Notes under the pieces: generated by a model
The model's database searches: none
What the model saw: only the letters and a program-made list of their open reading frames with translations
Told to the model about the DNA's origin: nothing
In this document: piece after piece, positions 16,340 through 34,500 of the stretch
Numbering within the stretch: the stretch's first letter is position 1
How the letters are laid out: every line of letters starts with the position of its first letter
Made by a program: the position numbers and the translations under genes
From: Leeuwenhoekiella sp.
GTDB taxonomy: Bacteria; Bacteroidota; Bacteroidia; Flavobacteriales; Flavobacteriaceae
Assembly (NCBI GenBank): GCA_049671285.1
Contig: JBATUQ010000052.1
Coordinates: forward strand, 15,774 to 79,773
DNA: 64,000 nucleotides
Reading direction: 5' to 3'

Positions 16340-16415
16340 GGCCGTGGATTTTCTTTTCTTAGATTGCCAAAGATAGGAGTGATTACGGTAACTATCAAAG
16401 AAATCCGCCGCTGCC

Positions 16416-17303
16416 TTAAAATTTGATATCCTGCCAAAATTGTGACTTGGTAGGTGCCACACGGGTCAGCGTATTCATCACGCTCTTAATATCGGTTAGT
16501 GGGCCAGCACTGAAGATTTTGACAACTTCCTCTGCCTTTGCATCAAAGAAAACCCGGGTCAGGTAATTGTTGGGGCGGCGATTGTACATCTCGTCAAAAA
16601 GTCCCAGGGAAACGGCGATGCCGGCCTTGGCCTCGTCCGGGTTTTCTACCATATAGTCGAGCCCGTTGCGGTGGTACGCATACATAATATCGTGGAACAA
16701 TAGAAAATTTGGTGATATCAAATCGTTGTTCAAGGAAAACCGGTTTTGTGTTCCCCCTTGCGACTGCCAGGCTGACGAGCCACCCGATTGGGCGGTACTC
16801 ACAATTCTTTTGGCTTCCTCAAAATAGGGTTTTCCGCCATTTGGCGAAAAAGTGTCCGCATCAAAACCAATGATGGTGTAGGCATAAAAGGCCAAGGTGG
16901 AAATAAGGTTGGAATCAAAAGAATTGGGGTTGTAGTTCAACGGCTGAAACTCGGTGTACCGAAAATTAAAATCCCGGTCGTTATAGTTAAATACCGTGGT
17001 GTTGTAGGTACCGTTATACACCGGCCGTGATGATTGCACCTGAATACTGGCGGTAAAGGCATCACTGTCAATGGCCGAAACAATAATCACCAAATTGCAG
17101 TTTATGCGCTCCTGCTGTTTGTAATCAACATCCGTCCAGACCGTGTTGTTCATAAATTCCTCGATCTGGGTCCGCAGGGTTTTAAATACTTGCAGGTTGG
17201 ACTGCCCCGTTTGTTCTGCGTTGATAGAAACCGAACAGTTGAGTTCTTGTGCCTTGCCCAATACAGCAGTAAGAAACAGGAAAAGAAACGTGATTTTACG
17301 CAT
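16416..17303 (-). CDS. DUF4835-family secreted protein
   Basis: Signal peptide MRKITFLFLFLTAVLGKAQ at the internal ATG. The position between coaBC and recN matches the conserved Bacteroidota placement of DUF4835. Family call from context and composition only. Confidence 0.55.
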   Translation of the reverse strand: MRKITFLFLFLTAVLGKAQELNCSVSINAEQTGQSNLQVFKTLRTQIEEFMNNTVWTDVDYKQQERINCNLVIIVSAIDSDAFTASIQVQSSRPVYNGTYNTTVFNYNDRDFNFRYTEFQPLNYNPNSFDSNLISTLAFYAYTIIGFDADTFSPNGGKPYFEEAKRIVSTAQSGGSSAWQSQGGTQNRFSLNNDLISPNFLLFHDIMYAYHRNGLDYMVENPDEAKAGIAVSLGLFDEMYNRRPNNYLTRVFFDAKAEEVVKIFSAGPLTDIKSVMNTLTRVAPTKSQFWQDIKF

Positions 17304-18504
17304 TGAGATCAAGTTGTATTTTGTTCCAGATGTCTGTGGCAACATCAGTCTTATCTTTAAGTGGAAACGTTTCCATTTTATCATTCTTATCTATCAAGGT
17401 TACCTTATTGGTGTTTTTTTGAAATCCTGCACCGGCATCATTGAGCGAATTGAGAACAATAAGGTCTAGCTTTTTCCGGTGTAGTTTTCCTTTGGCATTT
17501 TCCACTTCATTCTCCGTTTCCAGAGCAAAACCCACAAGATATTGATTTTCTTTGGAAGCACCCAAGGTCGCTAAGATGTCGACTGTGGGTTCTAGCGCAA
17601 TGCTCATTTTGGTATCTTTCTTCTTAATTTTTTGATCAGTCACCTGAGCAGGACGGTAATCTGCAACAGCAGCGGCGGCAATGGCAATATCCACTTGTGG
17701 AAATAACTTTGTGGCTTGCTCAAACATTTCTGCTGCGGTAGTCACTTTGCTAAGCTGAATACCTTCGTGTTCCACGGACAAAGCTGTGGGGCCGGAAATT
17801 AAATAAACGGTGGCACCGAGTGCGGCTGCCATTTCGGCAAGGGCGTAACCCATTTTGCCACTGCTGTGATTGCCAATAAACCGAACTGGATCTATAGGTT
17901 CATACGTAGGCCCGGCAGTGATCAGCACTTTTTTATTCAGGAGTGGCAGTTCTTTTTTTAGATCTTCTGAAATAAAATGTAGGATTTCTTCGGGCTCTGC
18001 CATTCTCCCCTCCCCGCTCAGGCCGCTTGCGAGTTCGCCGCTTCCCACAGGAATTAATTTGTTTCCGAAGGATTGTAATTTAGAAATTGAATCTTTGGTA
18101 CTTCCGTGTTTGTACATATCCAAGTCCATCGCTGGAGCAAAATACACAGGGCATTTGGCCGAAAGATAGGTGGTCAACAACAGATTGTCTACCCTGCCGG
18201 AAGCCATTTTGGAAAGCGTGTTTGCGGTGGCCGGAGCGATTACCATAAAATCAGCCCATAGGCCAAGCTTAACGTGATTGTTCCAGGTGGACGGGTCGTC
18301 CTCTTTGGTGAATTCGGTCAGCACGGTTTTTTTTGATAGTGTCCCCAAGGTGAGCGGTGTAACAAAATCTTTAGCGCCCGGCGTCATTACCACTTGAACT
18401 TTGGCGCCAGCCTTCATGAATAAGCGCACCAGCCAAGCCGACTTATATGCAGCAATGCCACCGGTAATGCCTAGAAGTACTTTTTTTCCTTTGAAAATTG
18501 ACAA
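17296..18504 (-). CDS. coaBC: Bifunctional phosphopantothenoylcysteine decarboxylase / phosphopantothenate-cysteine ligase
   Basis: The N-terminal flavoprotein motif KVLLGITGGIAAYKSAWLVRLF and the C-terminal CoaB domain (ITAGPTYEPIDPVRFIGNHSSGKMG) are present. TTG start. Confidence 0.9.
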   Translation of the reverse strand: MSIFKGKKVLLGITGGIAAYKSAWLVRLFMKAGAKVQVVMTPGAKDFVTPLTLGTLSKKTVLTEFTKEDDPSTWNNHVKLGLWADFMVIAPATANTLSKMASGRVDNLLLTTYLSAKCPVYFAPAMDLDMYKHGSTKDSISKLQSFGNKLIPVGSGELASGLSGEGRMAEPEEILHFISEDLKKELPLLNKKVLITAGPTYEPIDPVRFIGNHSSGKMGYALAEMAAALGATVYLISGPTALSVEHEGIQLSKVTTAAEMFEQATKLFPQVDIAIAAAAVADYRPAQVTDQKIKKKDTKMSIALEPTVDILATLGASKENQYLVGFALETENEVENAKGKLHRKKLDLIVLNSLNDAGAGFQKNTNKVTLIDKNDKMETFPLKDKTDVATDIWNKIQLDLNA

Positions 18505-18597
18505 ATTCTTTCAATTTTATGATCCCTCAAAAACAAAAAAACGGACCAATTCCAAAATAAGAAAAGGCACCGTAGATTATTGCAAATAAAGAGAATT

Positions 18598-18927
18598 CTA
18601 CTCCTCGTCCTTCTTACTCGTATCGCGATAATAAATCTTATCTTCCAACCACTCCTGCACTGCCATTGCGTGAGGCTTTGGCAACCGCTCATAAAATTTG
18701 GAAACTTCAATCTGCTCCTTGTTTTCGAAAATTTCCTCTAAGCTGTCGCTATAAGTTGCAAATTCGTCCAACTTCTCCAGCAATTCTCTTTTAATTTCTG
18801 TGTTGATCTGGTCAGCACGTTTTGAAATTATGGAAATTGCCTCGTAAATATTCTGTGTGGGTTGATCTATCTCTTCCCTGTTCAGGGTTACCGTGTTTAC
18901 CGGTGCATCAAAATTTTTAACGTCCAT
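18598..18927 (-). CDS. rpoZ: RNA polymerase omega-subunit-like protein (Rpb6/RpoZ family)
   Basis: NIYEAISIISKRADQIN resembles the omega core (xRYELVxxAAKRARQL). Acidic C-terminus. bamD-rpoZ-coaBC is a conserved Bacteroidota order. Confidence 0.5.
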   Translation of the reverse strand: MDVKNFDAPVNTVTLNREEIDQPTQNIYEAISIISKRADQINTEIKRELLEKLDEFATYSDSLEEIFENKEQIEVSKFYERLPKPHAMAVQEWLEDKIYYRDTSKKDEE

Positions 18928-18944
18928 TATTCTCCCTTTTTAAA

Positions 18945-19766
18945 TTATGTGGTCATATTCTCCAAGCGCGATGCGATATCGGCTTTAAGTTCATCTGCCT
19001 GCCCGCGGTATTCCCCTTCCGGGTAGTAACGAATCAGGGTATTGTAATATTCCAATGCTTTTCTCAAGCGTTCTTCGACTAAAAAAGCCAAACTGCCTAC
19101 CGCAAGTTTATACTGTGAATCCAGTTTGTAATACATCGCTCCTTCCCTGTAAGGCGAACCCGGATAATCTGAAATAAAATCATCAAAAGCAGCTATCGCG
19201 CTGGGATAGGTGCTCATCGCGTCCCCTATGGTGTTGTACTGCTTGGCAATATCAAAATCCTTCTTCTGAATTTTTTGGCTCAGTTCTGTGATCATGGTTT
19301 CGGCCTCCTCTTGAAAACCAGATTCCGGGTACTGCCCGATAAAAAGTTGCAACTTATCAAGTGCCTTGTTCGTTTCGGTCTGATCGCGGGAAGAAATGGG
19401 TGAAAGCTCGTAAAAACTGGCAGCACTTTTAAATGCCGCTTCTTCTACTTTTTCAGAATCAGGGTATGCAGAGATAAAGCGGTCAAACTGGTAGCTGGCC
19501 GTATAATAATCCCGCATTTTGTAAATATTGTCAGCGTAAAAGAACATAACCCGCTCCGCTTGCGGCTTGCCGCGGTAGGCCGGAACGACCTGCTCAAACA
19601 ATTGCAGGCTCTTGCTATATTTACCCGCCTGGTACAATGAATCTGCCATTGTATATTTTGCGGCTATGTCCGGTTCCTTCAGCACCTTTTGGTACTCACT
19701 GCAACCGGTGAGCAAAAAGACTGCAAAACAAACTGATAAAAATTTAAAGGCCTGGTTTGAAAACAT
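18945..19766 (-). CDS. bamD: Outer-membrane protein assembly factor BamD (TPR lipoprotein)
   Basis: Lipoprotein signal ...FLLTGCSEYQ, TPR repeats (ADSLYQAGKYSKSLQLFEQV...), 273 aa. Confidence 0.8.
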   Translation of the reverse strand: MFSNQAFKFLSVCFAVFLLTGCSEYQKVLKEPDIAAKYTMADSLYQAGKYSKSLQLFEQVVPAYRGKPQAERVMFFYADNIYKMRDYYTASYQFDRFISAYPDSEKVEEAAFKSAASFYELSPISSRDQTETNKALDKLQLFIGQYPESGFQEEAETMITELSQKIQKKDFDIAKQYNTIGDAMSTYPSAIAAFDDFISDYPGSPYREGAMYYKLDSQYKLAVGSLAFLVEERLRKALEYYNTLIRYYPEGEYRGQADELKADIASRLENMTT

Positions 19767-19802
19767 CGTGCAAAAATAACTATTTAAAACGGATTACAAA
19801 AC

Positions 19803-20684
19803 CTAAAGACGCAGTCCCTCAAAATATGTTGCAAGTGTTTGTGATAAGCCTACAGTGGCGGGCAGCAAAGGCAGTCGCACGATGGGATGGCAAAGACCTT
19901 GCGCTGCCAGCAAGGCTTTAATCCCTGCCGGATTGCCTTCGGCAAAGATATGGTTGACGCCGTCCATAAGCTGATAATGATTGGCATAGGCCGCTTTTAC
20001 ATCACCTTTCAGCCCAGAATTTATCATAGGTACAAAAAGCTGCGGTATCCCTTGACCAAGTACCGAAATCACACCATCACCACCGGCCAGCACCGTCGGC
20101 AGGGCAAGCATATCGTCCCCCGAAACGACCAAGAAACCTTCAGGCCTGTCTTTAATGAGCTTCATTACCTGTGCAATATCTCCCTTGGCTTCTTTGATCC
20201 CAATGATATTCTTGAAACCCCGGGCGAGCGAAAGGGTCGTAGCAGGTGCAATGTCGCTTCCCGTACGGCCAGGTACATTGTACAACATAATGGGCTTATC
20301 TGTCGCTTCTGCAATTGCGGAATAATGCGCGTATATCCCAGCTTGGGTGGGCCTGTTATAATATGGACTCACTGAAAGTATTCCAGCAAAGGCGCTAAGG
20401 TCGCGGGTCTGCAACTCTTCAACAACCTGAACCGTATTGTTTCCGCCCACGCCGAGCATTAACGGAAGTTTACCCGCATTAGCATCGATAACAGTTGCAA
20501 TGACCAGGTCTTTTTCGGCAGGTGTAAGCGTAGCGCTTTCACCGGTGGTACCCAGCACGACGAGGTAATCCACCTGATGAAAAATACAATGCTGCACGAT
20601 AGCCGTCAGGGCTTCGGTGTCAACACTTAAATCTTTTTTAAATGGAGTGACCAATGCTACTCCAGTTCCTCTAAATTCCTGCAT
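19803..20684 (-). CDS. dapA: 4-hydroxy-tetrahydrodipicolinate synthase
   Basis: GVALVTPFKKDLSVDTEAL...VVLGTTGESATLT...YNVPGRTG are DapA motifs. Confidence 0.9.
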   Translation of the reverse strand: MQEFRGTGVALVTPFKKDLSVDTEALTAIVQHCIFHQVDYLVVLGTTGESATLTPAEKDLVIATVIDANAGKLPLMLGVGGNNTVQVVEELQTRDLSAFAGILSVSPYYNRPTQAGIYAHYSAIAEATDKPIMLYNVPGRTGSDIAPATTLSLARGFKNIIGIKEAKGDIAQVMKLIKDRPEGFLVVSGDDMLALPTVLAGGDGVISVLGQGIPQLFVPMINSGLKGDVKAAYANHYQLMDGVNHIFAEGNPAGIKALLAAQGLCHPIVRLPLLPATVGLSQTLATYFEGLRL

Positions 20685-20685
20685 A

Positions 20686-21204
20686 TTAATCGAGACGCTT
20701 CAGTATTTTTAAATATTTGTGCAATTCAATGATAAATTGATCCCGGTCCCCTTCTTCGCTGTTGATCATCAAATCGTACAACTTTGGTTCTTCAGAACGC
20801 AGCCCGGCCTTAAATTGCGCCTGGGACTGAGCAACTAAAAGGTTTAAAAAAAGGTTTTCGGTATCAAAATAGCCCACGAGTAAATCAAATGGAGTTTTGG
20901 TGAACTCAGCAATCGCTGGATTTTTTATCTTGCCCAAACCCCCAATATCCTTCTCATTGAAAAACAAGACATTATCAGGCGTTTCCGAAGGTTTTTCGTC
21001 CATAAAACAAACCGCTTTCACTGTAGTGTTTTTAGGAAGAAACCCAACCAGCGAACTCCAATCGGGCTTTTCTACAAAATGCTTGGCATTATAAATAAGC
21101 CCAACTGATTCTATGGTGCCAAAGGGTCTGTTTCCTGTAGTGCGAGCCAGCAGTTTGATGTATTTTCTTTTGACGAAATACTCTTTGGTTGCGTTTAAAA
21201 TCAT
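20686..21204 (-). CDS. Conserved hypothetical protein
   Basis: 172 aa, 2-bp gap after dapA (operonic). No recognisable motif. Confidence 0.45.
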   Translation of the reverse strand: MILNATKEYFVKRKYIKLLARTTGNRPFGTIESVGLIYNAKHFVEKPDWSSLVGFLPKNTTVKAVCFMDEKPSETPDNVLFFNEKDIGGLGKIKNPAIAEFTKTPFDLLVGYFDTENLFLNLLVAQSQAQFKAGLRSEEPKLYDLMINSEEGDRDQFIIELHKYLKILKRLD

Positions 21205-21268
21205 TTAATTTTACCGTGGTGGGCAAAAGTAAGTAAATCGCCCAAGTGTCAATAAAATTATACCATTT

Positions 21269-22018
21269 GTGATCAGATTTTTCATTTTTGTTAGTTTTCT
21301 AAGCTTGATTGCCTGCGGCGAAAACAAATCAGTCACCCAGAAAATCACAGCTTCCCAGACAACAGTTTCAGATTCCATCCCTGCTGATGCTGAGATTGAA
21401 GCGTTCATAGCTCCGTATAAAAACCGCATTGATCAGGAGATGGACAGCGTGCTGGCCTATGCTCCCGCGACCTATACTAAAAGCAACGGCGAGTACAATA
21501 CCGCCATTGGCAATATGATGGCCGATGCCGTGCTAGAACTTGCCGATACCATTTTTGCTGCCCGTACCGGGAAACACATTGATGCGGTCTTGCTGAACAG
21601 CGGTGGGATTCGCGCCCCAATCAATAAAGGAAACATTACCACCCGAAGCGCTTACCAGTTAATGCCTTTCGAAAACAGTTTGGTCGTCGTTGAACTAGAC
21701 GCCCAAATGATTCAAGCGATGTTTGAATACTTGAGCTGTGGAAAAGCGCATCCAATCTCAGGTATGGAAATCGAACTTGACGACAACGGAAAACTCGCCA
21801 ACAACACCATACACGGTGAACCGCTGGATGATTCCAAAACCTATTTCATAGCCACCAGTGATTATTTACAAAATGGCGGCGACGGTATGGAATTCTTAAC
21901 CGATCCCGTTTCAAAAACTGATCTGGACTATAAAATCAGGAATATCCTGATCGATTATTTCAGCAAATACGACACCATCGCCCCGGTTAGGGATAGTCGG
22001 TTTATAAAACGGGACTAG
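21269..22018 (+). CDS. 5'-nucleotidase C-terminal-domain lipoprotein
   Basis: Lipoprotein signal FLSLIACGENKS. The 5'-nucleotidase C-domain is recognisable from NTAIGNMMADAVLE...LLNSGGIRAPINKGNITTRSAYQLMPFENSLVVVELDAQMI. Confidence 0.75.
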   Translation: MIRFFIFVSFLSLIACGENKSVTQKITASQTTVSDSIPADAEIEAFIAPYKNRIDQEMDSVLAYAPATYTKSNGEYNTAIGNMMADAVLELADTIFAARTGKHIDAVLLNSGGIRAPINKGNITTRSAYQLMPFENSLVVVELDAQMIQAMFEYLSCGKAHPISGMEIELDDNGKLANNTIHGEPLDDSKTYFIATSDYLQNGGDGMEFLTDPVSKTDLDYKIRNILIDYFSKYDTIAPVRDSRFIKRD

Positions 22019-22083
22019 GGCGGTTCTCTTGGTACGCTTCCTCACCTTGTTCGGACGCTACTCGAGAACCTTATCAAAAGGAA

Positions 22084-22203
22084 AACAAAAGGTGTCCGAG
22101 TAGGGTTATTAAAGCAGAGCGAGACCACCCGTACCGAGGAAACCGGAACAAAAAAAGGTGTCCGAGTAGGGTGGTCAAAGCGGAGCGAGACTACCCGTAC
22201 CGA
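22084..22203. repeat. Two tandem ~62-bp direct repeats (~85% identical), intergenic
   Basis: AAAAGGTGTCCGAGTAGGGT(T/G)(A/G)T(T/C)AAAGC(A/G)GAGCGAGAC(C/T)ACCCGTACCGAGGA occurs twice in tandem. A GGTTCTC...GAGAACC inverted repeat (22023-22071) lies just upstream. They sit between the two 5'-nucleotidase-domain genes. Confidence 0.6.
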
Positions 22204-22228
22204 GGACCCGGGAACTAAAACTTACATT

Positions 22229-23137
22229 ATGCATCGCAGAACCTTCGTTAAAAATTCAGTGGCTGCATCCCTGCTAACGGGAATGACAACAAACAGCTAT
22301 GGCGCACTACTTCCCAAAGCAGATAAGCACATCACGATTTTACATACCAATGATGTGCATAGCCACATTGAGCCTTTTGGTCCCGATGAAGGCCGAAATG
22401 CCAACAAAGGTGGAGTTGCCCGCCGGTTGACGCTTATTCAAAAAGTACGTGCCGAAAATCCCAATACGCTCCTGCTCGATGCCGGGGATATTTTTCAGGG
22501 GACGCCCTATTTTAACTTCTATGGTGGCGAACTCGAATTTAAACTGATGTCCAAATTGGGTTATGACGCGGCGACCATTGGCAATCACGATTTTGATAAT
22601 GGCGTGGGCGGTCTTGCCGCTCAGATGCCGCACGCCGGGTTCAAAATGCTTTCGGCCAACTATGACTTTACAAATACCGCGATGGAAGGCCTGACCAAAC
22701 CGTATCAGGTTTTTGTAAAAGATGATGTGAAAATCGGTGTTTTCGGGATTGGGATCGCGCTCGACGGACTGGTCAACAAAACGCAATATCGGGAAACAAA
22801 ATATATGGATCCTATCGAGCGAACTCAAGATATGACCCGTATTTTACGCGAGGAAGAAAATTGCGATCTGGTCATCTGCCTTTCACATTTGGGTTATAAA
22901 TACGACAGTGATAAAATCTCTGATGTTGCCTTAGCGGCGAAAACAAGCGGGATTGACCTCATCATAGGCGGTCATACACATACTTTTTTGTCCCAACCCA
23001 CTGTCACCGATAATAAGCGGGGAAAAAAAGTCTTGATTAACCAAGTAGGCTGGGCCGGAATCAATCTGGGCCGGATTGATTTTTATTTGGATGCAAGCGG
23101 TAAAGTGAGTTCAGAAGAACTGATAATTGAGGTTTAG
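22229..23137 (+). CDS. Metallophosphoesterase (5'-nucleotidase N-terminal/calcineurin-like domain), Tat-like signal
   Basis: MHRRTFVKNSVAASLLTG is a twin-arginine-type signal. ILHTNDVHSHIEPFG, DAGDIFQGT and GNHDFD are the dimetal-phosphoesterase motifs. Confidence 0.8.
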   Translation: MHRRTFVKNSVAASLLTGMTTNSYGALLPKADKHITILHTNDVHSHIEPFGPDEGRNANKGGVARRLTLIQKVRAENPNTLLLDAGDIFQGTPYFNFYGGELEFKLMSKLGYDAATIGNHDFDNGVGGLAAQMPHAGFKMLSANYDFTNTAMEGLTKPYQVFVKDDVKIGVFGIGIALDGLVNKTQYRETKYMDPIERTQDMTRILREEENCDLVICLSHLGYKYDSDKISDVALAAKTSGIDLIIGGHTHTFLSQPTVTDNKRGKKVLINQVGWAGINLGRIDFYLDASGKVSSEELIIEV

Positions 23138-23634
23138 CTCTTCAATTTTTTTTGCCTCCAACCCAATCTTTTTTGAATGCTACTAGGTGAGTTGGTAATT
23201 CTTAATTACATTATTAAAATCTGCATCACCCTAGTATTTGCCTTACAACAAATACTGTAAAATTGACCCTACTTAAATTTCAATTTCCTGCTTTGTATTA
23301 TTTTCTTGGAACGACAATTATCGTAATAATAATGCTCATATAAAGGAATTACCCCAAAACTATTGCGCCCTTACATCGATTTCTATTCAATTTTCACCGA
23401 CTTTTACGCTATTAAACACTGTTATTACTTTGTATTTCGTCGTTATAATTTATCTTTTAATGTATCATTATTGAATTTAATTTTATAATTGTAGGTATTT
23501 ACTTAAAATATTATTTACTTTTACATTTAATACTGAGAATATATTATACAAAGTCAACCTTTTTAGCTCCGCTTGAAGGTGGTGATTGTATTTAACAGTA
23601 AAGTAGTTATGTGATTAATTTCAATATCAGACCT

Positions 23635-25647
23635 ATGAAAAATATATTATTCCTGACTCTTTGTCTATCCTTCTGCGTGATGCAAGCCCAGCTTTATGTG
23701 TCAGCAGATACAGAAATCTATATTTCTTCGGACGATAATCTGTACTCCAACGAAAATATTATCAATGAAGGAAAAATTCAATTAAACGATGCTTCCAGAC
23801 TTATTTTTGACGGAAATTTGACCAATAACAACCTGATCGCCTATACCAACGGAACCGACAAAGGTATACTCCAAATAGGATCTGGCGAGGTATCCAGTGT
23901 CAGTGCTCAAAATATAAAGTTCCACCCTACAGTCACGGAAGAGGCTCCGTTTATCATTCTAAATAAGAATTCTCAAGAGGCAAGCGTTACACGGGGTCAC
24001 TTGCGATTAACGGAACAATTAAAATCAATAAGTGGTACATTAAATGCCCAAAGTTCTATTAGCGAAACCGGAGAATCTTCGGGATTGACATTTGCCAGCC
24101 CCGATATCACCACCACGTCAATAGTTGAAGAATCTGATGGCGGAAATGTAGTTAATGTAATTGTAGAGCGTTTTATACCCAATTCCAGTAGGGCGTGGAG
24201 ATATCTTTCATCTCCAGTAAGTACCAACGAGTCCATCAAGGAAAACTTACAAGAAGGTGCCAACATCACTTCACCAGGCCAAGTAGCAAATCCATTTCCG
24301 GGGTATGGCACCCATATCACAGGGTCTAAAACGGGAACTCTTGGTTTTGATGCAACATTAACCGGCAACTCTTCCATGTACTTTTGGGATGGAGGCGCTC
24401 AACAATGGAACAGTACTCCCAATACAGATACCAGACAACTCGCGGCAGGAGAAGCCTACGCCATACTTGTGCGGGGTGGCCGGGAGCTTGATTTGACTGC
24501 TGGAAACGATCAATTGGGTTCATCTACCATTTTAAGAACTCTGGGAAATCTTCACATTGGTGCCTACAACACCCCCAATTTGGCACCCACGACAGGTGAT
24601 TTTTCCCTTGTAGGCAACCCGTATCAGGCACAGGTTGACCTGGAAGCATTACTTAATAGTGGCAATAACGGCGGAGTAAGTAACAATTTTGTCTATTATT
24701 ATGATCCCAATTTAGGAGTACAGGGCGCGTATGCCACTATGGATTTTGGCAATGGGATTACCCCAAGTGTGTCTGAAGCCAGCAAATACCTACAACCCAA
24801 CCAAGCCTTTGTTGTACAAACTACCACGTCCAATCCCACTTTACTTTTTGACGAGAATTTTAAAAGGCCAACTGATCAAACAAAGATCAACGGCGTTTTC
24901 AGTCCCGCTCAAAAAGGCAAATCGGACCTGGATAACGATAAGTTGGATACAGATTTTAAAATAGACGTAAATTTATTTGATACAGATGCCAACGTGACCA
25001 AGGATGGGGTCACGTTAAGATTTAATGCTGCTTATAACGACGAGATACTTCCAGAGGAAGACGCTCCAAAATTTTGGAATCGGGATGAATCGCTAGCTGT
25101 CCTCAACCAAGGTCAGTATTTATCCATTGATAAGCGCCATATCGTCAAGGAAATGGCGAATGCGCAATTGTATATTTCAAATTACAGGAATTCAAATTAT
25201 TCCCTGCAAATTTCCATAAAAAATGCTCCTGCCGGAAGTAAGGTCGTTCTGATCGATAATTACCTAAATACACAAACACTATTGGAAGAAAACGCCAATC
25301 GCCACGATTTTAGCATTGACAAAAATGTAGCTCAGTCCATTGATCAAAGTCGATTTAAATTGGGGCTTTATAGTAATTCGCTTAGTGTTCCATCCACTGC
25401 CGAGCTATCGTCTATAGGTTTCTATCCCAATCCCGCTGTTGATAAGCTGAATATCGATTTGAATACTACGGATGACGTTTTAAAGGAACTACAAATTTTT
25501 AGCTCAGACGGTAAATTGGTCAAACAAATTGCTGTTGATAACCTTACCGAAAAGCAGATAGAAGTAGGCGATTTACCACGCGGTATCTATCTTGTAGAAA
25601 TGCAAACGGTCAAAGGAAAGGCTGTAAAGAAATTAATTCTTCATTAA
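23635..25647 (+). CDS. Secreted surface protein with a T9SS (Por) C-terminal sorting domain; function unknown
   Basis: Signal peptide MKNILFLTLCLSFCVMQAQ. The C-terminal ~80 aa, IGFYPNPAVDKLNIDLNTTDDVLKELQIFSSDGKLVKQ...GIYLVEMQTVKGKAVKKLILH, is a type-A T9SS CTD. It is preceded by a 470-bp very AT-rich non-coding region. Confidence 0.75.
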   Translation: MKNILFLTLCLSFCVMQAQLYVSADTEIYISSDDNLYSNENIINEGKIQLNDASRLIFDGNLTNNNLIAYTNGTDKGILQIGSGEVSSVSAQNIKFHPTVTEEAPFIILNKNSQEASVTRGHLRLTEQLKSISGTLNAQSSISETGESSGLTFASPDITTTSIVEESDGGNVVNVIVERFIPNSSRAWRYLSSPVSTNESIKENLQEGANITSPGQVANPFPGYGTHITGSKTGTLGFDATLTGNSSMYFWDGGAQQWNSTPNTDTRQLAAGEAYAILVRGGRELDLTAGNDQLGSSTILRTLGNLHIGAYNTPNLAPTTGDFSLVGNPYQAQVDLEALLNSGNNGGVSNNFVYYYDPNLGVQGAYATMDFGNGITPSVSEASKYLQPNQAFVVQTTTSNPTLLFDENFKRPTDQTKINGVFSPAQKGKSDLDNDKLDTDFKIDVNLFDTDANVTKDGVTLRFNAAYNDEILPEEDAPKFWNRDESLAVLNQGQYLSIDKRHIVKEMANAQLYISNYRNSNYSLQISIKNAPAGSKVVLIDNYLNTQTLLEENANRHDFSIDKNVAQSIDQSRFKLGLYSNSLSVPSTAELSSIGFYPNPAVDKLNIDLNTTDDVLKELQIFSSDGKLVKQIAVDNLTEKQIEVGDLPRGIYLVEMQTVKGKAVKKLILH

Positions 25648-25734
25648 TTTACTTGTTGTTTTTTAAATGAAACGGGCAGTATTTGATCTATATATAAACA
25701 CATCCTGCTCGATCAGTGAGAATATCTCAAATGT

Positions 25735-25938
25735 TGCCTAGCGGCGAAAACAAAGGCAATTTTCCTCATCACTGTTGGTCATAGAAAACCTTACCATTAC
25801 GACGCTAAGCGATAATCAGGACGAAATAAAGCCCCAATTAACCAAGTAGGCTGAGCCGGAATTAATCTGGGCAGTATTGATTATTATCTGGATGCAGGCG
25901 GAGTAGTAAGTTCGGAAGAACTCATAATTGAGGTGTAA
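25735..25938 (+). pseudogene. Decayed duplicate of the last ~210 bp of the metallophosphoesterase gene (22928-23137)
   Basis: About 80-85% nt identity to 22928-23137, including ...ACCAAGTAGGCTG(A/G)GCCGGAAT(T/C)AATCTGGGC...GAAGAACT(C/G)ATAATTGAGGT. The reading frame is broken by stops and indels. Confidence 0.6.
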
Positions 25939-25980
25939 GATTTCTTGTGGAATATGAATTGATCATGCCATCACCAAAAG

Positions 25981-26361
25981 TCAAAATGGATTTAAAAGCT
26001 GTAAATCCGTAATACTTTGGAAATCCTTAATGTTTCGAGTCATCAAAGGAATGTCAAAACTCAATGCAGTAGCAGCAATAATCGCGTCAGGCAGTTTGGT
26101 TGAATATAATTTACGAATGTCTGCAGTTTGCAATTTAATTGCTTTGTTGAATTCAATTACTTCACATTTTTCAAGAAATTCGTTCAGCATTCTGATATCC
26201 TCTTCTTCATCAGATTTCCAAGAAAGAAGCTCTATTTCTGAAATTACAGAGATGCAGGGCTGCCACTTGTCGTCGGTTAAAGTTAACTTGGGAATGTCAT
26301 TGAGGATAATATTCCTTGAAGGAAGTAAATGACAATATTTGTGTCCCAAAGATACTTCACT
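25981..26361 (-). pseudogene. vapC: PIN-domain (VapC-like) toxin gene disrupted by a single-base frameshift
   Basis: The canonical PIN N-terminus VKYLWDTNIVIYFLQG starts at a GTG overlapping the antitoxin stop (GTGA). It runs only 25 codons before a stop. The rest of the PIN domain (NIILNDIPKLT...WQPCISVISEIELL...LPDAIIAATALSFDIPLMTRNIKDF) continues in another frame. The join implies one missing A in GGAAATATT, now GGAATATT, at about 26310-26316. The listed ORF 25981-26394 has an artificial N-terminal extension. Confidence 0.65.
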
Positions 26362-26563
26362 CCCAACCCGCTCGAAGTTCATCCAATTGCGCATCTACTT
26401 GATCCATAGATTGTTTCTTCATAGAACCGGCGTAATCTTGCCAATTGCTCTTTTGATTTTGGCTTTCTGTGGTTCTTTTCAGACGGATCAAGTTTAATGA
26501 TTCCAAATTCTCTAGAATTTTCAGAACTCCGTTATTCAGTATTTCTATCGTAATGCTGTTCAT
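26357..26563 (-). CDS. Putative type II antitoxin partner of the PIN toxin
   Basis: 68-aa ORF (MNSITIEILNNGVLKILENLESLNL...) immediately upstream of the PIN toxin, with a 4-bp stop/start overlap. Probable start at the internal ATG. Family not recognisable. Confidence 0.45.
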   Translation of the reverse strand: MNSITIEILNNGVLKILENLESLNLIRLKRTTESQNQKSNWQDYAGSMKKQSMDQVDAQLDELRAGWE

Positions 26564-26646
26564 TATGAAAGCTTTAAGATTACATTCAAAAATAGACACA
26601 TTTCAGTTGAATCTAAAATTTAACAAAATATGCTCCTATAATTAAA

Positions 26647-28650
<2,004 letters not shown>

Positions 28651-28943
28651 TTATTTGTTATTCTTTCAGTGTTCTATATTATTAATTCACTATGCTTGCT
28701 GTGGTTAACTCATTAGTGCAACTGTCCTTTTTATTGTGGTCTTAACTGAGTTGTTAATAATGAACGGTCTTACAGGTCTGTAATTTATTAATCTTTCCCC
28801 TTCTTTAATGCGTTTGTGCGGTACTTTTCTAAGTTCCGTTTTCTTTGTGTAGAATTTCCTCATCACCCCAATCCTAAACTTCACTTTACCCTTGTCCCGA
28901 GAGGTGTAGGGTCTTGTGAAATAGGTTTTTATCTTGAGGTAAA

Positions 28944-29147
28944 TTACTGGTTTGTGATACCGGGCCAACTCCCTTCCGTTGTTGGAATTATTGGTCTTAA
29001 TTTAAAAGCGATTAAAAGAAGCGTGGTGGCCGTGTCATATAGAAATAAGTTCCCCGCGGAAATCACACCAACCAGATAGTTCCCAAAGACATACATCCAG
29101 AATCTGGGTCTGGACAAATAGAAAACTTCTTTAAACGTCAGCTTCAT
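28944..29147 (-). pseudogene. Possible N-terminal fragment of a UbiA-family prenyltransferase
   Basis: 67 codons, MKLTFKEVFYLSRPRFWMYVFGNYLVGVISAG..., resemble the first TM segment of UbiA-type prenyltransferases, then stop. No downstream continuation in any frame. Confidence 0.3.
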
Positions 29148-29377
29148 ATTGTCCCAAAAATACCATGATAAAACTTGAAATCATCGTGTTTACGGAATCT
29201 TTGTTCAATTTTTTCAGGAAAAGTGTAAACGGAAAGTTGTAGCCCTGAAACTTGAACTTGTAGCTTTAAAATTTTGAGCAAGAGAGTCCTCGACCATGCT
29301 CAGACTGCTCTTATAAATTGAACAAAGCTTGAGAAGGCAGAATCGAAAACTGTAAGTGTAATCAGTCACGTAGATAT

Positions 29378-29885
29378 CTAATAAAAAAGCAAACCCCAAC
29401 CCCAATAATTACTGTGGAATTGCGAGGGCTCTAACAATTTGGTTGAGTCACCGTTATGGTTCAAAAATTCCTGCTCTGAAAGTTGGCTGTGAAGATCGCC
29501 TGATTTTAAATTGAGGATAGCAAAGCCGTTAGTCGTCTTCGTGTACAGAATATCACGCTCTTCGTAAAGTGTCTCAATCAAACTCGTCAACCCAAAGCCG
29601 TCATCGTTTTCGTTTCTTTTTTCAACATTTGCATAGTGAAAATCAATCATAGTAATATAGTACTGCGAGTTCAATGGCACCCTGCCATAATCCCCCAATC
29701 CGTTATTTCCAGTACGAAAAGCGCCAAATGAACAATGCCACAAACAACACAGGAAAAAGGATTCTTTTCTTTACCGAAGTACCTCTCCTAGCTTTAGCTA
29801 TTAAAAACCTGAGCAGAAAACCGTAAACAATGGCTAAAATTGAAATACGGATGATTTCAAAGATGAGATGTAATAAAACAAACAT
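29378..29885 (-). other. Two overlapping minus-strand ORFs (60 aa membrane-like + 121 aa) that could be one frameshifted gene; unknown function
   Basis: ORFs 29703-29885 and 29378-29743 overlap by 41 nt in different frames. The first is a hydrophobic helix. No recognisable motifs. Lies in a gene-poor, decayed region. Confidence 0.2.
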
Positions 29886-30781
29886 TATGGCTCTAATTTA
29901 AAGTTTACGGTATCTGTCTATTCTTTGCCATAGGTACACACGGGCTAAAAATCAAATTTATTTAATCAATCTCAACGGGAATAGGTCCTCCTAGCGATAC
30001 AAAACCACCACCAATTTCTTCTATATTCACATCCAATTCATCACTGGTTTTAACGCCAACAATATTGACATCGATCTCATCAGAACCATTTAGTTTAACG
30101 CTGATGGTTCCATCTTCGTTTATAGGTATTAAACCATAGTTTACATCGGAGGCTAACTTGGGATAATATCAAAATTTTTAATCGTTGAGAAAGTTAGGTT
30201 AACCGCTATTACGGTCAATATAATTTTCGTGAATTTATCTGTTTTCATTTTCGCTTTTTTTAGTGATATTATTGAACTCCAATTTCTATACCCTTTTGAT
30301 ATCTGCTCGGGCAATTCTCTATTGAGCTTTTTAGCTCATAATATTTACACGGCATCCTCAAAATGGTTAAGTACATTGGTTCTCGAGACCAACAAATATG
30401 GTTGGCTCCAACTAATATAACCAGCAACAACTATTCTTTTTACTAGTCTGTATTTGTCTGTTTCGTCTTTATTCCTTTTTCGGTTGTACTTATTTAAAAA
30501 ACTTCGTTTAATTGATTACAAAGAGCCTAGCAGTAGGTATTATGATTACCTCTTTGCTGACGATTTCTAATCATATTAGTTGATTCTAACTATATGGAAT
30601 TGAGCTTTGTTTTTTTTGAACTTTTGGCATAAATTTAATGATACGAGAATTGATTAAAAGAAAATTTCTATTCAATTGGACTGTATTACAATAGTTTATA
30701 CTCAATCAGAGTAATCTACAATTTATTACTTCGAATTAGTCAGTATAATTAATTTACTCGCTTATTAAGGTGTGAAATTCC

Positions 30782-31105
30782 TTACTTAATTTCAGATGAT
30801 CTTATTGCTGTTCCAGATGCCACAATGAAAAGCATAGATTTTCCTCCACCAGAAAATTCACTATAATCTAAATCTACTCCGATAACTGCATTGGCTCCTA
30901 CTAAAAATGCCTCTTTACGCAATTCGTTAAGGACTGTTTCCTTTGACTCGCGAAGAGTATTTTGTAAAGTTTCACTCCGACCTCCAATCACATCACGAAC
31001 TCCTGCAAATAAATCCTTAAAAACATTCATTCCAAAAGCACATTCTGCTGTTAATATATCTATTCGTTGATCAATTTTAAAGTCAACGTGACTTTCTGTG
31101 GTCAA
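30782..31105 (-). CDS. YbjQ/UPF0145 (DUF74) domain protein
   Basis: [35 protein letters not shown]...[34 protein letters not shown] aligns along its length with E. coli YbjQ. The TTG start is listed, but the frame stays open upstream to 31270 (see the zinc-ribbon finding). Confidence 0.7.
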
Positions 31106-31202
31106 AGTGATTTTCTTAATTTCTTCTAAGGTTAGGTTTTTTACTTCGTCCAGCTTTTTTTCTTTGTTTAAATATGCCGCCTCTGCCTGCTTTCGATTTT
31201 GC

Positions 31203-31370
31203 TCATTTATATAACAAGTCTGGCAAAATCCATCGTTTAATAGATTTTTTATTGAAATTTGTACCGCAACCTAAACATTTTGGACTTTCCTTATCTATGC
31301 AACTTTTACATATTCCATTTTTAAGTTCGAAAATCCCGAAACCTTTTTCACATTTTTTACATTTTGCCAT
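31203..31370 (-). CDS. Small zinc-ribbon ORF (55 aa, three CxxC pairs), possibly the N-terminal part of a frameshifted zinc-ribbon-YbjQ fusion gene
   Basis: ATG...[55 protein letters not shown]. It is not in the ORF track (<60 aa). A shift of one base in the A6 run (plus-strand T6 at 31245-31250) continues into ...[13 protein letters not shown]... and on into the YbjQ ORF. Confidence 0.4.
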
Positions 31371-31515
31371 CTTTCTGAATTTTGCTAAACAAAGTTTCCT
31401 ATTGTCTTATAAGTTATTTTTTATGTGCTCAATAACAAACATTTTAATCAATTACTAATCTCACAAGTTCAGACAAGCTCTAATTAAATTTTCTCAATAT
31501 TTTTGCCACATCATA

Positions 31516-34500
31516 TTAAGAGCCCTTCCCCAACCCCAACTTCAATACCTCCTTAATCCCTTCCAGATTCTCCGAAAATTGCATCATCTGGCTAAGCATT
31601 TGGGCCATTTCATTTTTGTCGCCAAAGCCTTTCAACTTGTTGTTTTTTACAAAAGTTTCCTTGATGGTATTCCAGCGCTGGGTTTCTTCGGGGTTGAGCG
31701 TGCCGGTGAGTTCCTTGTATTTTAAAATGTTGGCTTCCGCAGAGGCGGTCAGGGTTTGTGACTCGCTTTCGTAATGCGAAAGCAACAGCGTATCGAGTTC
31801 GCGGTCGTTCATGATCGGGACGACCTTGGCGACCAGTTTGTTCATATCGCGGTAGGAGCCCTGCAGTTTAAACGACGGTTCGGTGCGGTATTCGTCCTCC
31901 ATCGCCGCACTTTTGATGTAGGCGGCATTCACCTTCAGCACCGTATTCCTGATCTTGACCACCTTTTGCAGCACCGCAACATATTCCGCAATCTCCTGAT
32001 TGCTGTGGTTGCCGCTCAGTTGGGCTTCCTGATTGTTGTTTTCCACCCGGTCCAGCAGCGTATACACATCGTCAAAATGGCTGCTGCTCAATTGCTGCAG
32101 GATTGGGTTTGCGGTCAGCGAGTTTTCGATCAGGCTCAGGTTAAACAGATGCGCGGTATCGCCTATGATGTCTCCCAGGTTGTAAATATCTGCCCGGTTC
32201 GCCAACATATCTGGGATGCGGAACTTCTCCCCGCTCTCTGTATATGGGTTCCCGGCCATTATCACGCAGAATTTCTTACTGCGCAGGTCATAGGTTTTGG
32301 GTTTGCCGTTATACACGCCTTCTATTTTTCGGGTTCCGTCAGAAAGTGAAATAAATTTCTGCAAAAACTCCGGGTTGCAATGCTGAATGTCATCCAGATA
32401 AAGCATCACGTTGTTGCCCATCTCAAAAGCAAGGTTCAATTTCTTGAGTTCTTCCCGCGCGGCAGAATTGGTCGCACTCGCAGGATCTACTGAAGTTACC
32501 TCGTGTCCTATCGCCGGGCCATTGATCTTCATAAAAATTAGGCCAAGCCGATTCGCGATATATTCCATCAAGGTAGTTTTCCCGTAGCCTGGCGGCGAAA
32601 TCAACAACAGCAAACCCATTCGGTCGGTGCGTTTGTTGTCGCCCACGGTGCCCAACTGTTTCGCCAGATTGTCACCAAAAAGCGGAAAATATACCTGATC
32701 GATCAGTTTATTCCTAACGAAAGAAGTCAGCACCCGCGGCTTGAATTCTTCCAGTTTGAGTTGTTCTTTTAAATCTTCGGTTACCTGATGTTTGGCCTCG
32801 CGAAAAGCTTGAAAAGCGGGTACATCTTCGGCTACAAAAGCAGACAAGGTCGCCGTAAAATCGTGATAATTGAATTCGAAATTTCCTTCTGTGATTGTCG
32901 AATGGCTTCCGCTCAAACCACTTATAGTGGCACTTGGCGAAGTCGCTTCTACCTTAGAAACCGACGCATCCGAAAATAGCAACGCACAGACCACCTCATC
33001 GATATATCGTGATTTCTGCGCTGTCGAAAGTTGAGTTCCATTCTGGTAAACCGTATTGACGAAGGCAGAAACCCACTGCCGCGTCAACTTTATCATTTCC
33101 GAGAAGTCGGGAATCTTCTCAATACTTTTACGAAATTTTAAATCTGCTTGTTGCTCCTTCAGGTGTTTCTCAAAAGCTTCTTTGATGGATATCGCCAAAT
33201 GACTTTGCGCAAATTGATCGTCGTTTTGCAATTCCTCAAAAAGATAGTCAGCGATATTTTCGCCTAGAGCGGAATCAAAAAGTGTGGTCGCTTTAGAAAA
33301 ATTTTCGATCTGTCGGGTTAATTCCTTGATTAAAAAATCATATTCCCGCGTCTGCGGAAAATACTGCAACACCTCCCCGGAAGCTTTAATGCTCTGATCG
33401 AGTTGTGCTTGTTTCGCGGCTTCGAGACTGTTCCAAAAATACTGCGCAAACGCCCTGATCTCCGGCCGAAACCGCAACAGTCCCAACGAATGGTGCTTGT
33501 TGACCAACGTCGCCAAGATTTCTGCGGCATCGCGATCGTGCACGCCTTTTACATACCCTTCGGCATAATCGCTACTGCTTTCTTGCTGCACGATTTTAAG
33601 CAGTTCTTCTCCCGTTTTATCATACAGCTTTTCGGTACCAATCTTTTGAAATAATTTATACGCTAAATAGGCCGACCTATACACCTGATCGTTTTCAGAA
33701 ACCAGTTCCTGATCCCAGAGGTTTCGCGAGTTAAGCAAAATGGGATTGTCCAGTTTTTGGTAGAAATCCGTTCCGGTAAGGTGGTAATTAAGTTCGCCGT
33801 TTTTTAAAACGATCGTGAGATCGAGTTGCTGTTTATTGACCCCAAATTTGTGCTTGCCGAGTTTGATGACATTTTCGCCATCTTCATACAGATCCTGTTT
33901 GTCCTTGAGTTTGCGCAGCGCATCTTCGCGGGCGGTTTTGAGTCCGGTTTCAATTTCTTCGGCTTTACCGCTATCATCGAGATCTTTCAGCTGCTGCACG
34001 ATGTCGCGCACCTTGTTGATCATCAGGTCTGCGGCAAAATATCCGTTAATTTCTGTGGCAGTCTTAAAACTTTCGACCTTCTTCCGCACGCCTTTTAAAA
34101 TACGTTCGGAAGCATTTTGCAAAGCCATTGCACGCTTGTTGCGCTTTTCGACCAAGGAGTTTTTCCGGGCATCAAAGGCATTGTACACCTCTTCCCGCTT
34201 GTCGATAATCTCCGAAATGAATTCTTCGAAATCAGCAAATTTCCCTTCCAACTCTTCCAGCTGAATGGTGATTTTATTCTGAAACTCGTCGCATTTTTCG
34301 GGTGTATCTGCGATGTCCAGATAGTTGATGATGCTCTGATCGATCAACTTTAACTGCGCGGCAAAATCAGCTTGGGCTTCGGCGCTTCCCAAGGATTTCC
34401 GCTTATTGCGCAAAGCGGCTTTTAGCTGGTTTAGCGTGGCAAAAATCAGGGAAATATTATCGATGATTTTGGTTGAATGCGCCGTATCCTCAATCTCTAA

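What the first reader, a model, noticed from the sequence alone, without database searches (positions are those of the whole stretch)
25981..26563. VapBC-like toxin-antitoxin pair in which the PIN toxin is inactivated by a 1-nt deletion while the antitoxin is intact
Seen in sequence: the PIN N-terminus (VKYLWDTNIVIYFLQG) starts at a GTG that overlaps the antitoxin stop (GTGA). This is classic toxin-antitoxin coupling. It hits a stop after 25 codons. The remaining PIN core continues in a different frame. One missing A in a GGAAATATT context would restore a ~127-aa PIN protein.

Inference: either a genuine toxin pseudogene left after toxin loss, a sequencing error in an A-run, or a slippery site.
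Basis: seen in the sequence. Interest (0 to 1): 0.5.

Follow-up and report, generated by a model that had tools for sequence, protein, structure and literature searches.

The report
Frameshifted VapC toxin gene, intact antitoxin
A small toxin-antitoxin gene pair, picked up by horizontal transfer next to the DNA ligase gene of a marine Leeuwenhoekiella-like bacterium, has its toxin gene broken by one frameshift while the antitoxin gene is whole; this kind of gene decay is common and well known.

Summary
On the minus strand, a 68-aa antitoxin-like gene (26563-26357) overlaps the start of a PIN/VapC toxin gene. The toxin's N-terminus (MGVKYLWDTNIVIYFLQ) stops at 26285-26283, and the rest of the PIN domain continues to 25981 in the -1 frame. 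Adding one base anywhere in 26284-26316 gives a 126-128 aa protein. That protein aligns without gaps to about 130-aa homologues and to solved VapC structures, with all family-invariant residues intact. The exact lesion cannot be placed.

The frameshift is not an assembler artefact. An independent Logan assembly of run SRR28062985 matches the window over 18,388 nt with no mismatch or gap. Forty-seven long ORFs in the window are intact. The only other broken gene lies 3.4 kb away, also in low-GC accessory DNA.

No slippery heptamer or long run is present, and homologues are single ORFs, so programmed recoding is unsupported. The module is absent from 80 related ligA loci.

Most likely this is a genuine, recent vapC pseudogene with a retained antitoxin. 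This is ordinary. A minor point is that the antitoxin family has no name in any database searched. Read-level confirmation was not possible.

The parts
26357..26563 (-). Antitoxin-like gene: 68 codons plus TGA, apparently intact. NCBI calls it hypothetical protein WBG71_14915.
   Evidence: ORF. It is identical to P0121. It aligns end to end with 65-71 aa family members; 128 representatives reach E<=1e-3. The same kind of gene sits upstream of the PIN gene in 5 homologous loci.
26283..26366 (-). 5' fragment of the PIN/VapC gene in its original frame. Start is TTG 26366 (MGVKYLWDTN...) or GTG 26360, with a premature TAA at 26285-26283. It contains the first catalytic Asp (WDTN).
   Evidence: It matches the homologue consensus MGxKYLWDTNxxIYFLQ and scores 33 bits on its own against the family HMM.
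26284..26316 (-). Interval that must contain the frameshift lesion: a net loss of 1 nt, or less likely a gain of 2 nt.
   Evidence: The family-HMM score rises up to nt 51 of the gene. It is then flat at 167.6-173.9 bits for an insertion anywhere up to the stop. A 1-nt insertion gives a gap-free alignment to homologues.
25981..26315 (-). 3' part of the PIN/VapC gene in the -1 frame, about 110 codons with no further stop, ending TGA 25983-25981. It carries the conserved E (SEIEL), D (LPDAIIAATA) and D (RNxKDF).
25981..26394 (-). The 137-aa ORF as called in public annotation (P0001, 'VapC family toxin'). Its first ~27 residues are out-of-frame readings of the antitoxin 3' end and the PIN 5' end.
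   Evidence: Its N-terminus does not align with any homologue. Its Pfam PIN match starts only at profile position 36.
26564..26646 (-). 83-nt spacer between the ligA stop and the antitoxin ATG. It contains TATTTTTG (26594-26587), which fits the Bacteroidetes -7 motif TAnnTTTG, and an imperfect inverted repeat (26573-26589 / 26607-26623). It is a possible promoter/operator and was not tested.
   Evidence: Sequence. Inverted repeat I2 has 17-nt arms, 76% complementary. There are sigma-70-like hits only weakly above shuffles, and no terminator-like site in 25600-26760. The functional reading is inference.

Best explanation
This is a chromosomal, horizontally acquired type II toxin-antitoxin module. 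A 68-aa antitoxin gene is followed, with overlapping stop and start, by a VapC-type PIN ribonuclease toxin gene. The toxin gene carries a real frameshift mutation, a net loss of one base somewhere in 26284-26316.

Translation from the native start ends after 25-27 codons. The only long ORF left (137 aa, ATG 26394) lacks strand beta1 and the first catalytic aspartate, so no active toxin should be made. The antitoxin gene is still full length.

The rest of the toxin gene has no second stop and keeps every family-invariant residue, so the lesion is evolutionarily recent.

Mechanistically, loss of the toxin removes the addictive or growth-arresting half of the module. It leaves an orphan antitoxin that is either on its way to decay or is retained as a repressor or anti-addiction factor.

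Shown: the gene architecture, the frameshift, its reproducibility in a second assembly, the intact conserved residues, and the accessory low-GC context.
Inferred: that the reads truly carry the lesion, that the toxin is inactive, and any residual role of the antitoxin.
For: - Both halves of one PIN domain lie in two frames, and a 1-nt insertion restores a gap-free match to ~130-aa homologues and to PDB VapC chains 7by2_B and 6nkl_A.
- All 35 invariant alignment columns, including E42, D92 and D113, and D6 are kept in the repaired protein.
- The Logan assembly of SRR28062985 is 100% identical to the window over 18,388 nt, including the frameshift.
- The lesion interval has no run longer than 3 nt.
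- Forty-seven ORFs of >=150 aa covering 53.4 kb are uninterrupted. The only other frameshifted gene (29885-29378) also lies in low-GC accessory DNA and shifts in the opposite direction. This fits relaxed selection on accessory genes better than random indel error.
- The module has GC 0.37 against 0.47-0.52 in the flanks.
- It is absent from 80 related ligA loci, where ligA and the metallophosphatase gene are nearly adjacent.
- The antitoxin is full length against its family, and the pair architecture is conserved in 5 other loci.
- Frameshifted or pseudogenised toxins with surviving antitoxins are documented elsewhere, for example the parE pseudogene in Caulobacter, the yacB frameshift in Shigella, and degraded TA remnants in Klebsiella (review PMC7354431).
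Against: - No reads could be inspected. The two assemblies probably use the same reads, so a consistent read-level error or a minority intact allele is not excluded.
- No close orthologue exists (best is 56% identity among 5.8 billion proteins), so the ancestral sequence and exact lesion are unknown.
- A toxin gene with a single lesion and otherwise perfect conservation is also what a sequencing error would look like.
- Toxin inactivity and antitoxin function are untested.
Confidence: 0.75

Rival explanations
1. Sequencing or consensus error: the organism's vapC is intact, and one base was lost in the reads or in the consensus.
For: The source is a metagenome-assembled genome (P0001 and P0121 are named 'MAG... 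Leeuwenhoekiella sp.'). There is a single lesion in an otherwise perfectly conserved gene. A second single-site frameshift lies 3.4 kb away. Both could reflect locally poor data.
Against: An independent k-mer assembly (Logan) gives the identical sequence over 18.4 kb with 0 mismatches and 0 gaps. There is no homopolymer longer than 3 nt in the 33-nt interval. No break occurs in 53.4 kb of long ORFs, including ORFs of 1633 and 1010 aa. The two frameshifts go in opposite directions and both hit dispensable low-GC genes.
Confidence: 0.13
2. Programmed -1 ribosomal frameshift or transcriptional slippage that makes full-length toxin at a low, regulated level.
For: The shift needed is -1. The N-terminal frame and the downstream frame overlap over 33 nt, so a shift anywhere there would work.
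Against: There is no X XXY YYZ heptamer in the zero frame and no A or T run longer than 3 nt in 26284-26316 (sequence). Among the 120 best homologues listed, only the window's own ORF is less than full length. All 5 loci read are single ORFs. The frameshift is therefore not conserved, whereas conservation is the hallmark of recoding.
Confidence: 0.02
3. The 137-aa ORF (ATG 26394), as annotated in GenBank, is a functional N-terminally remodelled PIN protein.
For: It is a long open ORF with an ATG, and NCBI calls it a VapC family toxin. It still passes the Pfam PIN threshold at 33 bits.
Against: Its first ~27 residues have no counterpart in any homologue. The Pfam match begins at profile position 36, so strand beta1 and the first conserved Asp are missing. 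By established PIN-domain knowledge, that Asp is one of the acidic residues that hold the catalytic metal. The correct N-terminus sits in the neighbouring frame, exactly where homologues start. The cluster has a single member.
Confidence: 0.05
4. The toxin loss is adaptive, not mere decay: the antitoxin is retained under selection as an anti-addiction factor or transcriptional regulator.
For: The antitoxin ORF is full length. Orphan antitoxins are proposed to act this way (PMC7354431).
Against: The lesion looks recent, so an intact antitoxin is expected by default. The antitoxin departs from two positions that are K in >=90% of the family (G12 and A45), which if anything hints at relaxed constraint. 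No related toxin was found elsewhere in the window.
Confidence: 0.1

Closest known systems
VapBC type II toxin-antitoxin systems (PIN-domain VapC ribonuclease toxin with an upstream VapB antitoxin)
   Same: - Once repaired, the toxin is a full PIN domain. It matches Pfam PF01850 and solved VapC structures 7by2_B, 6nkl_A, 3zvk_A and 3tnd_A, with the conserved acidic residues in place.
- A small upstream partner gene has overlapping stop and start.
- The module sits on the chromosome in accessory DNA.
   Different: - The toxin ORF is frameshifted.
- The protein falls far below the NCBIfam equivalog cut-offs for the tRNA(fMet)-specific VapC families (48.8 bits against 140; 22.7 against 143), so its target cannot be assumed.
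- The antitoxin matches none of the named VapB folds or families. There is no significant Pfam, NCBIfam or PDB sequence hit and no Foldseek hit.
Degraded TA loci with orphan antitoxins (for example the parE pseudogene with parD in Caulobacter, frameshifted yacB in Shigella flexneri, and orphan antitoxins of the Klebsiella pneumoniae complex)
   Same: The toxin is inactivated by a point lesion while the antitoxin ORF survives. The cases are described in review PMC7354431.
   Different: This case involves a different toxin family and host (Flavobacteriaceae MAG). No experimental data exist. The decay is at the earliest visible stage, with a single lesion.
Bacteroidota PIN toxin plus 68-69 aa partner family (unnamed). 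Intact examples are L002, L003, L085 and L087.
   Same: The gene order and sizes are the same, and the overlap is the same 10 nt (ATGGGAATAA in relatives, TTGGGAGTGA here). The antitoxin is 45-49% identical and the toxin 53-57% identical.
   Different: The relatives have one uninterrupted ~130-aa toxin ORF and an ATG start. The window copy is frameshifted and has TTG or GTG at the start positions.

Membership tests
VapC / PIN-domain toxin (Pfam PF01850) | Sequence match to the PIN domain over its full length | tested here: met
   Met only after in-silico repair: profile positions 2-115 of 120, 41.7 bits against a cut-off of 23.6. PDB VapC chains align over residues 5-123. As encoded, the match is split across two frames.
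VapC / PIN-domain toxin (Pfam PF01850) | Conserved acidic active-site residues: Asp in beta1, a Glu, and two later Asp | tested here: met
   D6 (WDTN), E42/E44 (SEIEL), D92 (LPDAII) and D113 (KDF) lie in invariant or nearly invariant columns of the repaired alignment. D6 is in a different frame from the others, so no single encoded product has all four.
VapC / PIN-domain toxin (Pfam PF01850) | An uninterrupted ORF able to encode the whole domain | tested here: not met
   There is a premature TAA at 26285-26283, and the remainder is in the -1 frame. The locus is therefore filed as a pseudogene of this family, not an active member.
VapC / PIN-domain toxin (Pfam PF01850) | Mg2+-dependent ribonuclease activity and growth inhibition | not testable with these tools
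   Requires expression and biochemistry.
tRNA(fMet)-specific VapC equivalogs (NCBIfam NF047863, NF010285) | Score above the curated equivalog or subfamily cut-off | tested here: not met
   48.8 bits against a cut-off of 140, and 22.7 against 143.
Type II toxin-antitoxin operon | Small upstream partner gene on the same strand, translationally coupled, with the pairing conserved in relatives | tested here: met
   The overlap is 4 or 10 nt in the window. A 68-69 aa homologous partner with a 10-nt overlap is present in all 5 homologous loci.
Type II toxin-antitoxin operon | Antitoxin binds and neutralises the toxin and autoregulates the operon | not testable with these tools
   Only an imperfect inverted repeat and a TAnnTTTG-like motif were seen upstream. 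There is no functional test.
Named VapB antitoxin families (AbrB/SpoVT, RHH/MetJ, Phd/YefM, PF02697 VAPB_antitox) | Significant sequence or fold match to one of these families | tested here: not met
   There is no Pfam or NCBIfam hit above cut-off. Only 4 of 30 family members touch PF02697, at E>=0.008. The PDB profile search gives E>=0.76. The AF2 model has pLDDT 73 and pTM 0.36 with no Foldseek hit. The last test is weak because the model is low-confidence.
Programmed -1 ribosomal frameshift genes | Slippery heptamer X XXY YYZ in the zero frame, and conservation of the split arrangement in relatives | tested here: not met
   No such heptamer occurs in 26284-26316. The homologues are single ORFs.

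The most novel reading that the evidence does not exclude
The 68-aa partner belongs to a widespread but unnamed antitoxin family of Bacteroidota. At least 128 clusters at 50% identity were found, all annotated as hypothetical, with no detectable Pfam or PDB relative. In this genome it may have been kept after toxin loss because it still has a job, such as neutralising related incoming PIN toxins (anti-addiction) or acting as a repressor. That would make this locus a natural toxin-free state of a new VapB-like family.
Probability: 0.12. Interest if true: 0.3.

Novelty: new member of a known kind. Interest (0 to 1): 0.1.

Why it matters
It matters little beyond annotation hygiene.

- The public record calls the 137-aa ORF an intact "VapC family toxin". 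It is better described as a frameshifted pseudogene whose true N-terminus lies in the adjacent frame.
- The locus adds one more example of the usual decay route of chromosomal TA modules, in which the toxin is lost first and the antitoxin lingers.
- It shows that the partner gene belongs to a sizeable antitoxin family that no database names.
- If read data confirm both nearby frameshifts, the ligA-flanking islet is a small example of ongoing decay of accessory DNA in a marine flavobacterium.

Tried and rejected
- **Pinpointing the lesion.** I scored every 1-nt insertion and 2-nt deletion against a family HMM. A displaced TTCCC (Phe-Pro) motif in the DNA alignment hinted at a more complex event but could not be resolved.
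- **Looking for a close intact orthologue.** The best hit among 5.8 billion proteins is 56% identical. A degenerate-codon pattern for WDTNIVIYFLQG found nothing in metagenome contigs. Eighty related ligA loci lack the module.
- **Identifying the sequencing run or platform.** No paper mentions SRR28062985.
- **Naming the antitoxin family.** Pfam, NCBIfam, a PDB profile search, AlphaFold2 plus Foldseek, and source names all came back empty. The word-index homologue search found only the protein itself. Full HMMER was needed.
- **Programmed frameshifting.** Rejected for lack of a motif and lack of conservation.
- **Promoter and terminator scans.** The sigma-70 consensus is inappropriate for Bacteroidota. 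Hits were barely above shuffles and no terminators were found.
- **ORF fragments at 28.7-29.4 kb.** I suspected one 67-aa fragment was a UbiA-like N-terminus, but Pfam gave no support, so I dropped the idea.

Full report
**What is in the sequence**

The feature lies on the minus strand, immediately downstream of ligA (28638-26647) and convergent with a T9SS-tail protein gene (23611-25647, plus strand).

An ATG at 26563 opens a 68-codon ORF (MNSITIEILNNG...DELRAGWE) that ends at TGA 26359-26357. Overlapping that stop is GTG 26360, and six bases upstream is TTG 26366. From GTG 26360 the reading is VKYLWDTNIVIYFLQGILSSMTFPS, ending at TAA 26285-26283. From TTG 26366 it is the same sequence preceded by Met-Gly (MGVKYLWDTN...). 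The frame one base back is open from 26394 to TGA 25983-25981. From about 26315 onward it reads NIILNDIPKLTLTDDKWQPCISVISEIELLSWK...LPDAIIAATALSFDIPLMTRNIKDFQSITDLQLLNPF.

**Is it more than chance?**

With one base inserted, the 126-aa product matches Pfam PIN (PF01850) over profile positions 2-115 of 120 (E 2e-10). The 137-aa ORF as it stands matches only from profile position 36.

A search of 5.8 billion proteins returned 923 relatives. Those listed are almost all 127-137 aa and cover 98-100% of the repaired query at 46-57% identity. The repaired protein aligns to 14 of them without a gap across the junction. It shares all 35 invariant columns, including E42, E44, D92 and D113, and it keeps D6, which is nearly invariant.

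I built an HMM from 119 homologues. The 27-aa N-fragment alone scores 33 bits, the 137-aa ORF 135 bits, and the repaired versions 168-174 bits. A profile of the family and the repaired protein itself both hit solved VapC ribonucleases (7by2_B, 6nkl_A, 3zvk_A, 3tnd_A and others) over residues ~5-123. So one PIN domain is encoded in two frames, and this is a true frameshifted vapC-type gene.

**Where and what is the lesion?**

I scored every possible 1-nt insertion and 2-nt deletion. The score climbs until the end of IYFLQ (nt 51 of the gene). It is then flat at 167.6-173.9 bits up to the premature stop. The lesion can therefore only be placed within window 26284-26316.

- Sites near TTCCCAAG score 173-174 bits.
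- The difference is too small to decide between them.

A 1-nt loss is favoured over a 2-nt gain because it restores the exact family spacing between the conserved Q15 and the QPxIS motif. The interval contains no homopolymer longer than 3 nt, and the "A-run" at the proposed site is just AA.

**The partner gene is an antitoxin-type gene and is intact**

In every homologous locus I opened (L002, L003, L085/L086, L087/L088), the PIN gene is preceded on the same strand by a 68-69 aa gene that overlaps it by 10 nt. The products of L002 and L003 are 46% identical to the window protein and end in the same ...ELRxxWE*.

A full HMMER scan of 1.84 billion representatives found 128 relatives at E<=1e-3. 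Nearly all are 65-71 aa and align from residue 1 to 68, so the window copy is full length. It differs at two positions where at least 90% of the family have Lys (G12 and A45). This is a weak hint of relaxed constraint or of co-variation.

The family has no name:
- There is no Pfam or NCBIfam hit above threshold.
- The PDB profile search gives nothing better than E = 0.76.
- The AlphaFold2 model is modest (pLDDT 73, pTM 0.36). It has helices at 11-22 and 53-67 around a low-confidence linker, and no Foldseek match.
- The sources call every member "hypothetical protein".

Calling it an antitoxin rests on conserved pairing and translational coupling with a PIN toxin. That is inference from the standard type II architecture, not a test.

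**Start codon**

In relatives the overlap reads ATGGGAATAA and the toxin starts MGIKYLWDTN. The window has TTGGGAGTGA, so the equivalent start is TTG 26366. Both are possible, and neither is ATG.

**Real mutation or artefact?**

The window comes from a MAG labelled Leeuwenhoekiella sp. (P0001 and P0121, locus tags WBG71_149xx, 79.8-kb contig). The closest ligA in 185,579 species genomes is only 79% identical.

A separate Logan assembly of run SRR28062985 contains a 28.9-kb contig. Of this, 18,388 nt were compared and are 100% identical to window 15981-34368, with no mismatch and no gap, including the frameshift. That rules out an assembler or polishing artefact. It also implies accurate reads, because a k-mer assembly of noisy reads would not give such a contig; this last step is inference. 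It does not rule out a consistent read-level error, since both assemblies probably share the same reads.

Against random indel error:
- Forty-seven ORFs of >=150 aa cover 53.4 of the 64 kb without interruption, including ORFs of 1633, 1010, 688 and 678 aa.
- The only other disrupted gene is a 169-aa-type membrane protein split into a 60-aa and a 121-aa ORF at 29885-29378.
- Its concatenation aligns end to end with P0123 (E 3e-44).
- That shift needs the opposite correction, removing 1 nt or adding 2.

Both broken genes are small, low-GC and lineage-specific, while every housekeeping gene is whole. That is the pattern expected from relaxed selection on accessory DNA, not from sequencing noise. 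I put the real-mutation reading at about 0.75 and the error reading at about 0.13.

**Recoding?**

A -1 shift would be needed. In the zero frame, the interval reads CAA GGA ATA TTA TCC TCA ATG ACA TTC CCA AGT TAA. It contains no X XXY YYZ heptamer and no run long enough for transcriptional slippage. Of the 120 best relatives, only the window's own ORF is less than full length, and the five loci read at DNA level are uninterrupted. The split is not conserved, so programmed frameshifting is very unlikely.

**Consequence for the protein**

From the native start only a 25-27 aa peptide is made. The 137-aa ORF that GenBank annotates as "VapC family toxin" begins inside the antitoxin gene. Its first ~27 residues match nothing, and it lacks the WDTN strand with the first conserved Asp. 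In PIN-domain nucleases that Asp is one of the acidic residues holding the catalytic metal, and beta1 is a core strand (established knowledge). An active toxin is therefore not expected; this is inference.

The 110 downstream codons remain open in 37% GC DNA. By my calculation, a random sequence of that composition would stay open with probability about 4e-4. No conserved residue has changed. The lesion is therefore recent.

**Context**

- The module has GC ~0.37 against 0.47-0.52 in ligA and the genes beyond.
- None of 80 related Flavobacteriaceae ligA loci carries the toxin or the antitoxin within 6 kb.
- In many of those loci, the homologue of the metallophosphatase gene (window 22229-23137) follows ligA within 7-700 nt. 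In the window, 3.5 kb holding the TA pair and a T9SS-tail protein gene lie between them.
- The 2.9 kb upstream of ligA (28639-31515) is also low-GC (0.28-0.41) and ORF-poor, and it has no counterpart in those loci.

The TA pair is thus part of horizontally acquired accessory DNA flanking ligA.

The 83-nt spacer upstream of the antitoxin contains TATTTTTG (26594-26587). This fits the Bacteroidetes -7 consensus TAnnTTTG, which I cite from memory and did not test. It also contains an imperfect 17-nt inverted repeat (26573-26589 / 26607-26623) that could be an operator. No terminator-like site separates the pair from ligA, so read-through from ligA is also possible.

**Comparison with what is known**

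The module works like a VapBC type II TA system, and once repaired its toxin is a member of the PIN/VapC superfamily. It falls well below the NCBIfam cut-offs for the tRNA(fMet)-specific VapC equivalogs, so no target should be assumed. The antitoxin belongs to none of the named VapB families.

Toxin genes inactivated by a frameshift or other point lesion beside a surviving antitoxin are well documented. Examples are the parE pseudogene in Caulobacter, frameshifted yacB in Shigella, and large numbers of orphan antitoxins in Klebsiella interpreted mostly as remnants of degraded systems. Anti-addiction has been proposed as a role for such orphans but is largely undemonstrated (PMC7354431).

**Verdict**

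It is a young vapC pseudogene in an accessory TA module of a flavobacterial MAG.

The points worth recording are:
- the mis-annotation of the 137-aa ORF;
- the unnamed antitoxin family;
- the second frameshifted gene nearby.

Read-level confirmation is the one decisive check I could not run.

Noticed in passing
window 29378-29885 (minus strand): A second frameshifted gene. A 60-aa ORF (29885-29703, MFVLLHLIFE...WRFSYWK*) and a 121-aa ORF (29743-29378) lie in different frames. Together they align end to end with the 169-aa protein P0123 (42% identity, E 3e-44). The junction is TAC TGG AAA TAA CGG, and the correction needed (remove 1 nt or add 2) is opposite to that of the PIN gene. GenBank annotates only a 90-aa piece (WBG71_14925). 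The Logan contig is identical here too.
   Followed up: partly
window 28639-31515: A low-GC (0.28-0.41), ORF-poor 2.9-kb stretch upstream of ligA. It holds only short ORFs, apart from a YbjQ_1-family gene (30782-31105). It has no tblastx counterpart in 80 related ligA loci, so it looks like decaying or foreign accessory DNA.
   Followed up: partly
window 23138-26646: The TA pair and a 678-aa T9SS-tail (Por_Secre_tail) protein gene lie between ligA and a metallophosphatase gene. In many related Flavobacteriaceae those two genes are nearly adjacent, so this is a variable insertion spot downstream of ligA.
   Followed up: partly
window 26357-26563 and proteins P0124-P0250: The 68-aa antitoxin-like protein belongs to a family with at least 128 representatives at 50% identity. 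Nearly all are 65-71 aa and all are annotated as hypothetical. No Pfam, NCBIfam or PDB relative was found. The family consensus is MxTxTIDIINxKAxxLLxxLExLxLIR...YKGAMxKQ...QLxELRxxWE. The window copy has G12 and A45 where >=90% of members have Lys.
   Followed up: partly
window 25981-26394: The public annotation (P0001, 'type II toxin-antitoxin system VapC family toxin', 137 aa) treats the out-of-frame ORF as an intact gene. It should be flagged as a frameshifted pseudogene.
   Followed up: yes
window 31516-38823 (minus strand): A 1633-aa protein with DUF3686 ('ATPase involved in DNA repair'), DUF7902 and an AAA domain (31516-36417) is preceded upstream on the same strand by a 688-aa SPFH/Band-7 protein (36757-38823). 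This is a conspicuous large gene pair of unclear function next to the low-GC region.
   Followed up: no
window 31203-31370 (minus strand): A 55-aa ORF with two CxxC pairs ([24 protein letters not shown]...CLGCG), zinc-ribbon-like, lies in the 411-nt gap between the YbjQ gene and the 1633-aa gene. It has no Pfam hit.
   Followed up: no
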